From Lytechinus pictus (lineage: Eukaryota), in NCBI RefSeq assembly GCF_037042905.1, contig NC_087257.1, forward strand, positions 8,990,001 through 9,054,000: a stretch of 64,000 bases of DNA, written 5' to 3'. Each line of letters begins with the position of its first letter. Positions within the stretch are counted from its first letter, which is position 1. Shown piece after piece: positions 3,001 to 60,000 of this stretch. Position numbers: made by a program.

Positions 3001-6000
3001 TATGGCAACTTCCATGGTAACCTTGATTTTGATTGGCTGCGAGCCCTGTTACCATGGTATTTGCCACAATGGAAAAGTTACAACAGTTGTAACTCTTTAT
3101 GAAATGGGGCCCCTTATTTTCTGAGGAAAAGGGGGAAATTCACAGTAAAGCTCAGATAAATCAAGACAGAATATATAGTGAACAGGATCAATGAAAATTA
3201 GACAAAATTTAAAAACATGATTCTGAATGTACAAATCATACAAATCAATCACACAAATTAGCAAATCTGTGATCTGTAAAGTAAGCTTATCTAATATTTA
3301 CCCTGCGCATGACTTTATTTTTTATCCAGTAAATGTTGTAAAAAGGGGCGGGGTGGGTTTGCAGGATATAAAATTTCCAACCGAGATGTAGTGTTGAAAG
3401 TGTAAAATGATGCAAAATCAAACTGCAAATACCAATTTTGATTTTTAATGTGTTGTGTTATCGACCAATAATGGAGGAGGGGGTCCAAATGAGAAACCAA
3501 AACAAGCAATAGGATGAGGAACAAGACATGGATGATGCAAAAGGAAAAGAAAAATAAGGAAGAAGTTCTGCATGGAAAGATGATCCAATGGGTTATTTTT
3601 CTTCCAGTGAGTTGTGTGCGTTGCTATGTCAGTGAATACCTCAACATCCGTAAGGCATCCTCTGAAAGCCCTCTATGTAGTTCAAGGGCCCGTTTCATGA
3701 AGTCTTACAACTATCGTAACTTTGCCATTATTGTCTTTCCATGGAAACCTTGATCATGATAGGCTTCTGAGTCCTGTTACCATGGTAGTTGCGATAATGG
3801 CAAGCTAACAATCGTTGTAACTGAACTCTTTATGAAACAAGCCTTAAGTTGAGTATTGAGACACCCACACTGAATTGTGTACCAGAAATGCTGACAGTTA
3901 CGGGATCATCATACAAAAGTGCAAAACAGAGAAGGGAAAGAAAAGGATATCAGTACACGGTTCAATTCTGTGGAATAATATTCCATCTGCAGTAGGAAGG
4001 GCTGCAACTTTACAATCATTTATTTCATCCTATTGGAGAAACCGTAGATATTAACCCAGGTTATAAGACACAACTTGCTAAAGTTTACTCTTTTTGTATC
4101 ATTCTAATTTTGTTGTCCTTTGCCTTTTTTCTTTTGTATGTGTTAAAATGTAGCCGGGCCCTCTGGGAGAACAGTGTATGTCACTGATGAGGCTACCCTG
4201 GAAAAATAAGACTTTATAATAATAACAATCACTCCCTTCTCAGAAGGTATGACGAAAAATAAAGAAATCTACATTCTACAAGATGCCTCTGAGATCACAT
4301 GATTTCTATCAGGTAAATTGCCAATTGGTCCACACCCACTTGGTCTACTTTCCATTTGGTCTCATTCCACATGGTCTAATCCTAGTTCGTCTACAACCAG
4401 TAAGTCTAACAATTTGGTCTAGTTGCCAGCCAAAGTACCTTTTGTCTAATTTGGTCTTGCATTTTTTTCTTACCTGATACCAAGAAAGCATGAATGCTTG
4501 TAAGCAAGTAACCAGAGGACCTGGTAATGAGGATAAATGCCTTACCAAAGGGCACTAGCATACCAAGTGGGAAATCGAACCTTGGTCACCGGAACCCCCG
4601 CTTTACCGACTGAGCTATCGCGTACCTAGTTAGGCTATACCCAATACATCCAGTACCCATTTGGTCTAAAAACCATGTAGTCTATATGATTAGCTCAACT
4701 GCGCATGAACCACATATTCACATAACAAATGCGAAAAAGTATTAAAGTAGATGAAATGAAATTAGACCATGTGGGCAAATGGCGATGAGACTTTGTGGGT
4801 ATTAGACCAAGTTTAGTTTCCACCAAATGGCAATTAGACCAAGTTGATAGAAGTGGACCAAATGGGTTTAGCAGACGTACCATTATACTTCAGGTAACTC
4901 TGCCGAAGTCAAATCTTCTGGGAGCACAGATATCAGGGCCCCGTCTTACAAAGAGTTACAATTGATCCGATCAACCACAACTATGGAAAGCCAGCCAAGT
5001 CAACATCTAAAATGCATGATTGTTTCAAATGTTTTCTAGATATGATGTATACTAATACATTCATTGTTGTCTTGACAATTTGATGTGTTCCTCTTTGATT
5101 ACAAGTGAACTTTGTGTAAAATTTTGGTAGGAAATTATGACAATTATGGATTTCCGTAGAGTTGAGATTGATCGAATCAATCGCAGCTCTTTGTAAGAGG
5201 GGACCCTGTTCGATTTAGGAGTAATTTGACTTCGAAGAATTATAACACGTTTTGAATAATCCGGTCTGAAATATTGATTTGAGTGAGGCGATTATTCGGC
5301 TTATGAAAGGTCGACTTAGGCAGAGTTACCTGTATGTGGGAAGCAGATCAACTGCTAGTAGTCCCAAGTGAATATATATCTATCCAACTGGCTTGTCCTT
5401 CAGCTGACCAGTAAACGATTGAAACATTACTTTGACGTGGGTCATGTCGCAGAATGGTTGGTTGCTCGTTTGCTTGCATCGACACATCAGGTACGGTTTG
5501 CTCTTCTCGACCTCGAACCGGACTGGTTTAAACTCGGTGGGTTTGTGAGCCCCGTCACAAAATGGCTGCAAGAGTTTTAAAAAAATAATGATAACATTTG
5601 ATGGAGATACATTCATTTTCATGTTATCATTCTTTCTTCTTTTATTATTTTTTTCACTTATTCTTTCTTTATTCCCTTCTTCAGGGTCTTACAAAGTAAT
5701 TATCACATCTTTCTTCTTATGAATTGGAATGGTGACATAGGTCACACTTGACGATCGTGCATTTGCACTAACTACTCCCAAGCTATGGAATAGCCTGCAA
5801 ATTGACGTAAGCTCTAGCTCCACCACTATCTTCAAATCTAAAGTGAAAACCTATCTCTTTAGTTAAGAAAATTGTTGTAAATGTAGAATGAAGTAAAAAG
5901 TACTAGCTGAGAGCACAACTGAATTTATTTGTATAAAGGCTGCACAATATGTGGGCGCGTCATTGTCTAGTGGTTCTGACTCTCGCCTTTCAAACAGAGG

Positions 6001-57000: not shown

Positions 57001-60000
57001 CCCTTTATACTAATAGCTCCTTACAGATTTTTTTTTCAATTTGTGCTGTTTATAAAACTTTTTTTTAAAGTGGCTACACCCCTGTACATCAAAATTTAAG
57101 GCCTGTTGAATTTTTTTTATAGACAGGGTTTCAAAAAGGTAATCACAGAAAAAAAGTGATATTTTCAATTTTGTCTGAGACTTCAGCTACTCATTCCCCA
57201 CTCATTGTCCTGTGCATTTAAGTTAACATTTCTTTTTTTTTTGTTCTTTATGTTTGTGTATTTTGCAGGTTACCATCTACAGGGAGGACACATCAAAGTG
57301 GAGCCATCAGTTCCAAGAAAAACAAGAAGGTATCACAAATTATCAAAATTTACTTTAAAATTTAAATTTGTATTTTTAATGATAATGGGAAATGAGTCCT
57401 TGCCTGTATACTTGTCTGGTACCTACAAAGCTACATTTTGTCAAGTACTGGCGATAGAAAGCCAGTACTTTGATATTAGCAAAGTTGATGTAAATGTTCA
57501 CAAAGAGACAGTTTTCTTTCATCGTCTACCACAGATGATGATTTTCTTAGTATGTGGGCCCATTTGTTTTTCTGACAGAAAGTGGAGTTTCTGAACTTTT
57601 TTTGTAACTTATTTTTTAGTTTCTGACGTTAGCATATAGTATGTACGCTATTTGACTATTCACTACATATATTTGTTCGAGGTGCACTGAATTATGAAGA
57701 AGTTAAGTCTGTTTCCCATATCTAGCTTGAGTTATCTCGGCATCTAGCTCAATGTTTCATTTCATGTACTGAAAATTATAGTTAAAAGGTTTCTGGATAT
57801 AAAACTAGAATTAATTAAATAGGAAAATTTTATTGGTTTATAGAATAATTTGAATTACCGACTGAATCAAAATTTATATGGATTTGAAATTGTTCATACT
57901 GGTAGACAGGTCTGGTAGACATTGGCAAGCCCAAATTTGATTGGTTCGAACTTTGAACCTTGTTTTCAAAAGTACCGTACATGTATCACTCCTAACTTTA
58001 GACCACCCACTTTTTGGATAGGCCTAATTTTGGATGGTTCTAGATGTCCAGAGTTAAGAATTTAATATGATGTCTTATCCTCGTCCCAATTTATTCCTTC
58101 ACTTGTGCCTCATGTGCATTTCTAATTGGTTTGTAGCATCGTCAGATTGAACTTTTGTTGTATTTTATGCCTCCGACTTCCGAGTCAGACTCTCAACCCT
58201 AGGAAGTAGGCCCATCGTACAAAGAGTTGCGATCGATCTGATCAACCACAACCATAGAAAGCTAGCAACATAAATATCTAAAATGCATATTTGTTCAAAA
58301 TACAATTTAGAGATATTCATTTCATTGTTTTCTTGAAATTTCTTTGTGCTTCTCTTTGTTCACAAAGGACATTGTGTAATTTCCTTTGAAAAAACTTGTG
58401 ACAATGATGGATTTCCATAATACTGTAGTTGAGGTTGATTGGATAAATTTTAACTCTTTGTAAGTCCCTGTATGATCATTTTGCCATCCGTGATCACTAC
58501 CTTGCAAATCTTTATTTTGATTGGCTGATTATTTGTAATGGAGACACAATCATCGGGATAGTTCGCTGGATTAATCTCAAGAATGCAATTCTTAATTGCA
58601 GTCCCAAGTCAAGTTAGGACTATTTGCAAAATAGCGCGCTATTTACGAATTATCCCGTTTGCAGGTGCAGACGCATTCGGGATTTTTTATTCACGGCGTC
58701 ACACCATAATGTATCAATGTCTCGCTCGAGCATGAATTGCTCTTGCGCTGGTGGCGATGGGGTTTCTTGAATCTCGAAATTGATCGCGAAGATCGGGCTA
58801 AAATCTCGAGATTGAGAAAACTCGGCTGGTGCAGCACCGCCTATAGTTTGCAACTTGTTCTATATTTTAGCCCTCATAGCAATGGGACAAACGTGGGTTG
58901 GCAAGCCAGGGTCTTGTTTCATAAAGGCTTGTTATAATAACAAATGCACGATTTCTATAACAAGTTTGCCATCAGCCAATCAGATTGAAGGATCTCAGTA
59001 GTTGCTTCAAATTTGTTATAACATGTTTTATGCATTGGAGCTCTGGTTGAACTCGGGTTGAACTCATCAAGGTTTTATTTCGACTTATGACAAAGGGCAA
59101 AGATTAGAAGGTGGCAAAAACATTGGGAATAGATAAAACAAAGACTGTAATGTTGTATGTTAGTATGGATATCCAAGATACAGATTTTATTGAAAGGACT
59201 AGATAAGATGGTGAGAACAGCTATCTAGAATGTGAATTGCAATACCAGAATACATGTACGGTATATTAGGCTGACATATGTCCATAGGAAGAGTTTTTTC
59301 CCCTCCTATATACATAATCTTTGCAAGATCGTTAGCTTACAAAACGCTGCTTCCATGTCACTTTAAATGATTCTTTCAATGGTCTAAATATTTATTTTGA
59401 CTTTTCTTGGGCCAAAGTCCAAAAATGATTGTGCAAAGATTTGCAACTAGCTCATAATCTCATGAAGCACTTGCATGTATTATCCAAAGGAGGTACAAGA
59501 TGGAGAGAGCTTATATAATAGGCAGTTAAAAAAAAAAACGAATGTAACAACTCTAAATATTGTGTCGCAATTCATAAACCAGGGAAAATGTCTGCAGTGT
59601 TTGCAGAGCTCAATTGACATAGAAACCTTTGTTTTCTAAGATTTTCACTTAGTTATTTACAAATTGCAATTGTTTTTTGTAGTGTACATGTCACAGAAGA
59701 ACATGGAATGTGATGTTAAGAACACCAAAGAAAACAGAATTGGTATTTGAATTTAGAAAATGGAAAACTGGGGTTGTAACCTTACATGTAATATAGCCCA
59801 GGCAAAAAATTAATTTATATTTTCGGGGCTACTTTTTACGACTAACAGTACTGCCTAAATCTGCAACATCGGATAACCTAAATATATTGCAAATTAATGG
59901 GGATTTTCCAGGGCTCCTATTTAAGTTTAGGTTTCTTTTAACATTTCGGGGGCAAAATCGCCCCGAGCCCCTGTTTAATTTTTTCCTTGATATGGCCCCA

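What the first reader, a model, noticed from the sequence alone, without database searches (positions are those of the whole stretch)
5380..57329. CISD3-SPAG6-PSMB3(-IGF2BP) looks like a pre-vertebrate-WGD microsynteny block
Seen: gene order CISD3(-), SPAG6(+), PSMB3(-), IGF2BP(+). Established: human 17q12 carries MLLT6-CISD3-PCGF2-PSMB3-PIP4K2B, and the paralogous 10p12 carries MLLT10...BMI1-SPAG6-PIP4K2A. IGF2BP1 and IGF2BP3 lie on the HOXB and HOXA chromosomes. Inference: this window preserves the ancestral cluster whose single-copy members were split reciprocally between duplicates, with SPAG6 kept on one and CISD3/PSMB3 on the other.
[Added by the scan's program, not by the reader: the finding's places include an assembly gap (unread letters, written N; its length is only estimated) at 48368 to 48525. 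Whether the letters on both sides are continuous or in frame is not known: test that first.]
Basis: partly seen in the sequence, partly recalled or inferred. Interest (0 to 1): 0.66.

Follow-up and report, generated by a model that had tools for sequence, protein, structure and literature searches.

The report
Sea urchin CISD3-SPAG6-PSMB3 gene neighbourhood
Four ordinary, intact genes lie side by side in a sea urchin genome in an order that fits their human counterparts on chromosomes 17 and 10 descending from one ancestral cluster, which is plausible but modest and only partly testable here.

Summary
The window is Lytechinus pictus DNA: its IGF2BP exon 1 is 100% identical to the L. pictus protein. 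It holds CISD3(-) at 5380-9387, SPAG6(+) at 16661-33237, PSMB3(-) at 37799-45967 and the first two coding exons of IGF2BP(+) at 54878-57329. Every intron I traced is GT..AG, and the exon lengths of the three complete genes sum in frame.

No other gene was recognised. There is no PCGF/BMI1, PIP4K2, MLLT or COMMD3. The only other coding element is a gag-protease LTR element inside SPAG6 intron 1.

The assembly gap (48368-48525) lies between PSMB3 and IGF2BP. CISD3-SPAG6-PSMB3 are therefore on one uninterrupted stretch, and only the IGF2BP link depends on the scaffold join.

Papers confirm three mammalian facts: the 17q12 list MLLT6-CISD3-PCGF2-PSMB3-PIP4K2B, the run MLLT10...COMMD3-SPAG6-PIP4K2A, and IGF2BP as a family of the Hox paralogon. 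The "one ancestral cluster, differential loss after duplication" reading is therefore the most economical one for the trio.

Other echinoderms, hemichordates, amphioxus and molluscs could not be examined with these tools. The 10p12/17q12 paralogy itself rests on recall. Verdict: real and probably ancient linkage, an ordinary kind of finding, of low to moderate interest.

The parts
5380..9387 (-). CISD3 (mitochondrial protein with two CDGSH iron-sulfur domains), complete CDS. Exons: 9387-9307, 6447-6328, 5565-5380 (stop).
   Evidence: Pfam zf-CDGSH. Solved CDGSH proteins including human CISD3 6avj at E 7e-8. 92% identity to S. purpuratus CISD3-like. tblastn placement. Exon 1 matches at 17 of 27 residues. 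GT..AG introns.
16661..33237 (+). SPAG6/PF16 (armadillo-repeat protein of the ciliary central apparatus), complete CDS. Exons: 16661-16685, 24639-24734, 27612-27778, 28727-28910, 29536-29741, 30197-30523, 30976-31167, 31852-32114, 33153-33237 (stop).
   Evidence: Pfam Arm on 3 exon ORFs. Solved SPAG6 at E 6e-82. 120 listed relatives, the named ones almost all called SPAG6. Collinear tblastn with hemichordate and mollusc SPAG6. All 8 introns GT..AG. Exon 1 found by pattern.
17269..24245 (-). LTR retroelement inserted in SPAG6 intron 1. It is not part of the synteny block but accounts for most of the 7953-bp intron. It carries gag-like and aspartyl-protease ORFs and an internal 173-bp tandem array.
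   Evidence: 240-nt direct repeats, 100% identical. Protease Pfam families at cut-off, and gag with only a sub-threshold PNMA match. No reverse transcriptase or integrase family in 10 further ORFs. Tandem array.
37799..45967 (-). PSMB3 (20S proteasome subunit beta3). CDS exons: 45967-45789 (the exon itself starts at 45973, just after an AG acceptor), 41928-41821, 41366-41189, 40021-39927, 37847-37799 (stop).
   Evidence: Pfam Proteasome on exons 1 and 3. Solved beta3 chains are the best hits for exons 1-4. C-terminal exon read. GT..AG introns.
48242..48244 (-). Candidate true PSMB3 start codon: an ATG directly followed by a good GT donor, 124 bp from the gap edge. Hypothetical.
   Evidence: The first PSMB3 exon opens with two conserved codons (S, I) right after an acceptor, matching residues 2-3 of solved beta3. 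ATG+GT sites were read by eye and listed. 32 of 150 listed representatives align the exon's first residue to their residue 2, and 24 of 150 start at the in-exon Met.
48368..48525 (.). Assembly gap (158 N) between PSMB3 and IGF2BP.
   Evidence: The flanks do not overlap each other (best matches 19-20 nt, E 0.22 or higher) and are unique in the window. No recognised exon abuts the gap.
54878..57329 (+). IGF2BP, 5' part only. Coding exons 54878-55052 and 57269-57329 cover RRM1, residues 1-78 of 634.
   Evidence: Pfam RRM_1. Best solved hit is IGF2BP2 RRM1 at E 6e-11. 100%, 93% and 85% identity to L. pictus, S. purpuratus and Diadema IGF2BP. tblastn finds no further exon up to 64000.

Best explanation
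This is an ordinary stretch of the Lytechinus pictus genome carrying four functionally unrelated, intact genes. They are a mitochondrial iron-sulfur protein, a ciliary central-pair protein, a proteasome core subunit and the start of an mRNA-binding protein. They alternate in strand, forming two divergent pairs and one convergent pair.

The CISD3-SPAG6-PSMB3 trio is most likely a surviving piece of a linkage already present in the deuterostome ancestor. In vertebrates that region was duplicated in the early whole-genome duplications. Each single-copy gene was then kept on only one copy: CISD3 and PSMB3 beside PCGF2/PIP4K2B on 17q12, and SPAG6 beside BMI1/PIP4K2A on 10p12.

Nothing suggests that the genes work together. 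The linkage is best read as passive retention, because no rearrangement happened to separate small neighbouring genes.

IGF2BP probably belongs to the same ancient chromosome (the Hox-bearing linkage group). Its immediate adjacency is not shown to be ancient.

Shown here: gene identities, order, strands and intactness in the urchin, and the mammalian gene lists. Inferred: ancestry of the adjacency, the duplication-and-loss history, and the absence of functional coupling.
For: The trio lies on sequence without any N, since the only N run is 48368-48525.

ATG-to-ATG or stop-to-stop spacers are 7273, 4561 and 8910 bp. No recognisable gene lies between or beside the four. None of 56 ORFs outside the exons and the LTR element reached a Pfam cut-off (6 of the 10 ORFs).

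The mammalian lists place CISD3 and PSMB3 two genes apart. They place SPAG6 between COMMD3 and PIP4K2A. The human locus is called BMI1-PIP4K2A or PIP4K2A-BMI1.

IGF2BP is a 2R family of the Hox paralogon. Invertebrates have a single PI5P4K and vertebrates several, attributed to whole-genome duplication.

Rough inference, not a computation: if genes of one ancestral linkage group (several hundred genes) were fully shuffled, two urchin neighbours would land within three genes of each other in a mammal less than about 1% of the time. A third landing in the matching interval of the paralogous region would be about as rare again.
Against: No anchor gene (PCGF/BMI1, PIP4K2, MLLT6/10, COMMD3, Hox) is in the window. 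Patterns for a RING finger and a PIP4K motif gave 0 hits, and a second PIP4K pattern gave one hit in a frame broken by stops. That scan is insensitive to short exons.

No second invertebrate lineage was examined, so the adjacency could be echinoid-specific.

By my recollection of the human strands (from no call), order is conserved but orientation is not. CISD3 and PSMB3 share a strand in both species, but SPAG6 is opposite to them in the urchin and not in the interleaved human map. That would need at least two small inversions.

A hemichordate genome paper reports no apparent microsynteny even between two hemichordates (PMC11175523, legend passage). Long-range survival of gene order is therefore the exception.

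The database lists S. purpuratus CISD3 on a 3.30-Mb contig and S. purpuratus IGF2BP on a 33.7-Mb contig. This may mean different scaffolds or merely different assembly versions, and I could not tell which.
Confidence: 0.6

Rival explanations
1. Secondary juxtaposition. The genes have always been on the same ancient linkage group, but their immediate adjacency arose by intrachromosomal shuffling in the echinoid lineage. The resemblance to the mammalian 17q12/10p12 order would then be coincidence.
For: No outgroup was examined. Anchor genes are absent from the window. Microsynteny is reported as largely lost even between two hemichordates. Strand orientation is not conserved (recalled).
Against: Two independent coincidences would be needed. 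CISD3 and PSMB3 are near neighbours in both urchin and mammals. SPAG6 sits in the mammalian interval flanked by paralogues of the genes that flank PSMB3 (plus recall).
Confidence: 0.2
2. Constraint-driven block. The genes stay together because regulatory DNA of a neighbouring developmental gene (PCGF/BMI1, or IGF2BP/Hox-linked genes) is interleaved with these bystander genes, or because divergent pairs share promoters.
For: In mammals a developmental regulator (PCGF2 or BMI1) sits inside the block. The urchin genes form two divergent pairs.
Against: No PCGF gene is in the urchin window. The divergent pairs are 7.3 and 8.9 kb apart, which is too far for compact bidirectional promoters. A 7-kb LTR element with identical LTRs has inserted into SPAG6 intron 1 with the SPAG6 coding exons left intact. 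Conserved non-coding elements could not be tested.
Confidence: 0.1
3. The IGF2BP adjacency alone is an assembly artefact. The scaffold join at 48368-48525 would have brought together two contigs that are not neighbours.
For: The gap lies exactly between PSMB3 and IGF2BP. A perfect 220-nt inverted repeat sits 0.6 kb to its left, a structure that can accompany assembly trouble. The flanks share nothing.
Against: Both genes belong to families that lie on the same mammalian chromosome near HOXB, so linkage on one urchin chromosome is expected. Nothing in the window shows a misjoin.
Confidence: 0.1

Closest known systems
Mammalian 17q12 cluster MLLT6-CISD3-PCGF2-PSMB3-PIP4K2B (human amplicon list, PMC2958950; horse chromosome 11, PMC6617995)
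   Same: CISD3 and PSMB3 are close neighbours with one gene between them. By recall, both lie on one strand.
   Different: The gene between them is SPAG6 in the urchin and PCGF2 in mammals. No PCGF, PIP4K2 or MLLT gene is in the 64-kb window. In the urchin the gene beyond PSMB3 is IGF2BP rather than PIP4K2.
Mammalian 10p12 cluster MLLT10-DNAJC1-COMMD3-BMI1-SPAG6-PIP4K2A (goat list, PMC9902602; human BMI1-PIP4K2A locus, PMC6341070)
   Same: SPAG6 occupies the position that corresponds, through the paralogue pairs BMI1/PCGF2 and PIP4K2A/PIP4K2B, to the interval holding PSMB3 on 17q12.
   Different: None of SPAG6's mammalian neighbours is beside it in the urchin window. The paralogy of the two regions is recalled and was not tested here.
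Hox paralogon (human 2q, 7p, 12q, 17q plus parts of 3), with IGF2BP as a member family (Sundstrom et al. 2008, PMC2566581)
   Same: An IGF2BP gene lies next to genes whose mammalian orthologues are on the HOXB chromosome.
   Different: That is linkage at chromosome scale. No Hox gene is in the window, and the adjacency here crosses an assembly gap.
Described bilaterian microsyntenic blocks, such as the pharyngeal cluster pairs (PMC11175523)
   Same: The kind of claim is the same: unrelated neighbouring genes kept together since before the vertebrate duplications.
   Different: Those blocks were shown in many phyla and often include developmental regulators with interleaved enhancers. This one has been seen in one urchin plus mammals only.

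Membership tests
CISD3 (MiNT) orthologue | Two CDGSH iron-sulfur motifs in one short soluble protein with an N-terminal presequence | tested here: met
   The exon 2 / exon 3 junction completes the first motif, and the second motif lies in exon 3. Pfam zf-CDGSH at cut-off. Exon 1 matches the S. purpuratus N-terminus at 17 of 27 residues. That the N-terminus is a mitochondrial presequence was not tested.
CISD3 (MiNT) orthologue | Closest relatives are animal CISD3 rather than CISD1/2 or bacterial CDGSH proteins | tested here: met
   The top hits are echinoderm proteins, several of them named CISD3-like, at 63-92% identity. Below them come mostly unnamed or bacterial CDGSH proteins. Human CISD3 6avj matches at E 7e-8. 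No tree was built.
SPAG6/PF16 | Full-length collinear match to SPAG6 of distant animals and to solved SPAG6/PF16 | tested here: met
   The searches were made exon by exon.
Proteasome subunit beta3 (PSMB3/PUP3) | Beta3 chains, not other beta or alpha subunits, are the best matches over the whole length | tested here: met
   Exons 1-4 cover residues 2-190 of beta3 chains. Other subunits appear only at E 0.002 or higher. The final 15 residues were read.
IGF2BP (IMP/VICKZ) | Two RRMs followed by four KH domains | tested here: inconclusive
   Only RRM1 (residues 1-78) is in the window. The 100%-identical L. pictus protein carries RRM and KH Pfam domains, so identity is secure by that route. The rest of the gene was not seen.
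Ancient (pre-2R) microsynteny block | Orthologues adjacent in at least two distant lineages | tested here: met
   This holds for CISD3 and PSMB3 only: urchin (this window) and mammals.
Ancient (pre-2R) microsynteny block | Adjacency present in outgroups or other invertebrate phyla (amphioxus, hemichordates, other echinoderm classes, protostomes) | not testable with these tools
Matching contig lengths between searches failed because the species lists did not overlap.
Ancient (pre-2R) microsynteny block | Retained duplicate genes (ohnologues) mark the two vertebrate regions as duplicates of one region | not tested
   The pairs BMI1/PCGF2, PIP4K2A/B and MLLT10/MLLT6 are recalled. Only general statements were found. 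A search for all six names together found no evolutionary paper. Curated ohnologue tables are in supplements that are closed.
Ancient (pre-2R) microsynteny block | Anchor genes present next to the block in the invertebrate | tested here: not met
   No PCGF, PIP4K2, MLLT, COMMD3 or Hox gene was recognised in the 64 kb. The scaffold beyond the window was not available.
LTR retrotransposon (side feature) | Identical LTRs with TG..CA ends, target-site duplication, primer-binding site, polypurine tract, gag, protease, reverse transcriptase and integrase | tested here: inconclusive
   LTRs, a 4-bp flanking duplication, a PBS-like and a purine-rich tract were read by eye. A gag-like ORF and protease are present. 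No reverse transcriptase or integrase was found, so this is a non-autonomous or deleted copy.

The most novel reading that the evidence does not exclude
CISD3-SPAG6-PSMB3, with PCGF, PIP4K2 and MLLT genes just outside this window, is a bilaterian-wide block held together for more than 500 million years by regulatory constraint around the Polycomb gene or the Hox-linked region. The urchin would then give the gene-by-gene order of the pre-duplication segment, showing exactly which vertebrate copy lost which gene.
Probability: 0.2. Interest if true: 0.45.

Novelty: new member of a known kind. Interest (0 to 1): 0.3.

Why it matters
If the trio is ancestral, it is a tidy local example of how single-copy genes of one pre-duplication segment were parcelled out between vertebrate paralogous regions (17q12 and 10p12). 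It would also tie that segment to the Hox-bearing linkage group in an echinoderm. That helps fine-scale reconstruction of the pre-vertebrate gene order, but it changes no current view. Conserved linkage with differential loss after the vertebrate duplications is well established.

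Tried and rejected
I went ORF by ORF instead: 80 ORFs.

2. Contig-length matching as a proxy for synteny. CISD3 hits gave contig lengths for six echinoderm species. The SPAG6 search listed no named echinoderm, so no species could be matched. The listing of cluster members, which might have helped, was switched off.

3. Literature. No paper holds at least 4 of CISD3, PSMB3, SPAG6, PIP4K2A, PIP4K2B and synteny. 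None combines microsynteny or amphioxus with these genes in a relevant way. None treats the six anchor genes together in an evolutionary sense. The paralogon paper of Lamb 2021 gives no 10p or 17q detail in its main text, and its tables are supplements, which are closed.

4. Pattern scans for PCGF RING, PIP4K, KH and second-RRM motifs found nothing usable.

5. Rfam and tRNA scans found nothing.

6. A strict ATG-plus-donor pattern found no PSMB3 start exon. A looser one gave the candidate at 48244-48242.

7. The representative search was meant to settle the PSMB3 N-terminus but was not decisive: 32 of 150 against 24 of 150.

I worked the coordinates out by hand.

All searches were exon by exon.

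Full report
WHAT THE WINDOW IS. The window is 64,000 bases at about 37% G+C with a single run of 158 N at 48368-48525. It is sea urchin DNA. The first coding exon of the IGF2BP gene is 100% identical to a protein named 'insulin-like growth factor 2 mRNA-binding protein 3 isoform X5 [Lytechinus pictus]'. It is 93% identical to the S. purpuratus protein and 85% to the Diadema protein.

THE FOUR GENES. I found exons by reading stop-to-stop frames and by short patterns. I confirmed them exon by exon and made or searched no joined protein. Exon ends were read from the sequence around each exon. Every intron I traced begins GT and ends AG.

For the three complete genes the coding exon lengths add up to multiples of three. 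This was arithmetic on coordinates only.
- CISD3(-): 81+120+186 = 387 nt.
- SPAG6(+): 25+96+167+184+206+327+192+263+85 = 1545 nt.
- PSMB3(-): 179+108+178+95+49 = 609 nt.

CISD3 has the second CDGSH motif in its last exon. The first motif is split over the exon 2 / exon 3 junction. Evidence:
- Pfam zf-CDGSH scores 42.9 bits against a cut-off of 29.5.
- Its nearest named relative is S. purpuratus CISD3-like at 92% identity, followed by other echinoderm proteins, several of them named CISD3-like.
- tblastn places that protein on exons 2 and 3.
- Exon 1 matches its N-terminus at 17 of 27 residues.

SPAG6 is very strongly conserved. One exon matches solved SPAG6 at E 6e-82. Hemichordate and mollusc SPAG6 align collinearly over nearly their full length.

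PSMB3 exons 1-4 match beta3 chains of solved proteasomes over residues 2-190, and beta3 always outranks other subunits. The 15-residue C-terminal exon was read directly.

IGF2BP is represented only by residues 1-78, which cover RRM1. The remaining 556 residues of the L. pictus protein find nothing in the window, so the gene runs off the right end.

LAYOUT.
- The CISD3 and SPAG6 start codons face away from each other, 7273 bp apart.
- SPAG6 and PSMB3 converge, with 4561 bp between their stop codons.
- PSMB3 and IGF2BP diverge, with 8910 bp between their start codons. This interval includes the gap.

NOTHING ELSE RECOGNISABLE.
- None of the 56 ORFs scanned outside the exons and the retroelement reached a Pfam cut-off (6 of the 10 ORFs). 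One sub-threshold chance match (DUF1286) was seen.
- Patterns for a PCGF-type RING finger and a PIP4K motif gave 0 hits. A second PIP4K pattern gave one hit in a frame broken by stops.
- There is no Rfam family and no tRNA.
- These scans would miss short exons. However, the spacers are too small to hold a typical multi-exon gene.

THE GAP. No recognised exon or reading frame touches it. The 1.5-kb flanks share only 10-20-nt chance matches, and the 300 nt on each side are unique in the window. Continuity therefore cannot be judged from the window, and 'in frame' does not apply.

What matters is position. CISD3, SPAG6 and all recognised PSMB3 coding sequence lie left of the gap on uninterrupted sequence. 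IGF2BP lies to its right. The trio is thus independent of the scaffold join, and the IGF2BP link is not.

One complication concerns the PSMB3 start. The first PSMB3 exon begins right after an AG acceptor with two codons (S, I) that match residues 2-3 of solved beta3 chains. The real start codon may therefore sit on an upstream mini-exon.

The only good ATG-plus-donor site I saw on that strand is at 48244-48242, 124 bp from the gap. If that is right, the gap sits in the PSMB3 5' UTR or promoter. A search of protein representatives did not settle this. In 32 of the 150 listed, the exon's first residue aligns to their residue 2. In 24 of 150, the protein starts at the in-exon Met.

THE INTERPRETATION. 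The mammalian facts were found in print.
- A human 17q12-q21 amplicon list reads ...MLLT6, CISD3, PCGF2, PSMB3, PIP4K2B... (PMC2958950, passages).
- On horse chromosome 11 the same ten-gene island at 23.20-23.58 Mb is followed by HOXB1-13 and IGF2BP1 at 23.71-25.01 Mb (PMC6617995, table passages).
- A goat chromosome 13 list reads ...MLLT10, DNAJC1, COMMD3, SPAG6, PIP4K2A... (PMC9902602, passage).
- The human locus is named PIP4K2A-BMI1 at 10p12 (PMC6341070, passages). A T-ALL paper lists SPAG6, BMI1 and COMMD3 among 'genes located at chromosome 10' (PMC6107954, passage).
- Sundstrom et al. 2008 treat IGF2BP as a family of the Hox paralogon that expanded in 2R (PMC2566581, passages).
- A review states that invertebrates have one PI5P4K and vertebrates several, 'presumably' through whole-genome duplication (PMC12276927, passage).

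It rests on the pairs BMI1/PCGF2, PIP4K2A/PIP4K2B and MLLT10/MLLT6, and I found no paper stating it.

Granting that paralogy, the interleaved mammalian order is CISD3 - PCGF - SPAG6/PSMB3 - PIP4K2. The urchin order CISD3 - SPAG6 - PSMB3 is collinear with it once PCGF is left out.

Two separate coincidences would be needed to get this by chance, and I judge each at roughly 1% or less under full shuffling within one linkage group. This is rough reasoning, not a computation. Ancestral linkage followed by differential loss is therefore the best reading of the trio.

By my recollection of the human strands, orientation is not conserved, so small inversions must be allowed for.

LIMITS.
- No eukaryotic genome collection was available, so the tests that would confirm or refute the idea could not be run. 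These are other echinoderm classes, hemichordates, amphioxus and molluscs.
- A proxy using contig lengths in the protein database failed.
- One ambiguous datum: S. purpuratus CISD3 is listed on a 3.30-Mb contig and S. purpuratus IGF2BP on a 33.7-Mb contig. These may simply be different assembly versions.
- A recent hemichordate genome paper notes no apparent microsynteny even between two hemichordates, but 'remarkable' microsynteny between L. variegatus and L. pictus (PMC11175523, legend passages). Deep survival of order is therefore the exception and needs showing.
- That paper does not mention SPAG6, PSMB3, CISD3 or IGF2BP.
- Published block lists and curated ohnologue tables are in supplements that were closed, so this block may already be catalogued.

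MECHANISM. Nothing points to a functional unit. The four products act in mitochondria, cilia, the proteasome and mRNA transport. The divergent pairs are 7-9 kb apart, not compact shared promoters. A 7-kb retroelement has landed in SPAG6 intron 1 and left the SPAG6 coding exons intact. Passive retention of an old linkage is the most likely 'how'. Regulatory constraint remains possible but has no support here.

VERDICT. It is a new example of a well-known kind of pattern, of low to moderate interest.

Noticed in passing
window 17269-24245 (-), inside SPAG6 intron 1 (16686-24638): An LTR retroelement with two 240-nt direct repeats that are 100% identical. By eye it has TG..CA ends, a 4-bp flanking duplication, a PBS-like tract next to the 5' LTR and a purine-rich tract before the 3' LTR. 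It encodes a 578-codon gag-like ORF with a zinc knuckle and a 303-codon ORF with an aspartyl protease. No reverse transcriptase or integrase was found. It looks like a recent insertion of a non-autonomous or deleted copy, and it raises G+C to 0.50-0.53 at 18-22 kb.
   Followed up: partly
window 21691-22551: A tandem array of 173-bp units (5 copies, 85% matches) inside the LTR element, on the 5' side of its gag-like ORF.
   Followed up: no
window 40749-41154 (PSMB3 intron 3): 2.7 tandem copies of a 150-bp unit start just past the donor of PSMB3 exon 3. The copies still translate to fragments resembling the end of that exon, so the exon-intron junction was duplicated in tandem into the intron. 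They are possible decoy splice sites.
   Followed up: no
window 38161-39420 and 44567-45187 (PSMB3 introns 4 and 1): Two further tandem arrays: 157 bp x 8 copies (92% matches) and 309 bp x 2 copies (99% matches).
   Followed up: no
window 47216-47435 and 47568-47787: A perfect 220-nt inverted repeat with a 132-nt spacer, 0.6 kb left of the assembly gap and in a CpG-rich stretch. It is either a foldback element or a sign of assembly trouble next to the gap.
   Followed up: partly
window 48242-48244 (-) and 45973: PSMB3's first recognised exon follows an AG acceptor and opens with two conserved codons before its first ATG. The true start codon may be a mini-exon 124 bp from the gap, which would put the gap in PSMB3's 5' UTR or promoter.
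   Followed up: partly
window 4934-5206 / 37365-37644 / 58219-58464; 11828-12433 / 49603-49758 / 51413-51671 / 56508-56909; 5987-6174 / 32266-32447: Three families of dispersed repeats at 75-83% identity. Two copies of the first family lie just downstream of the CISD3 and PSMB3 stop codons, in opposite orientations.
   Followed up: no
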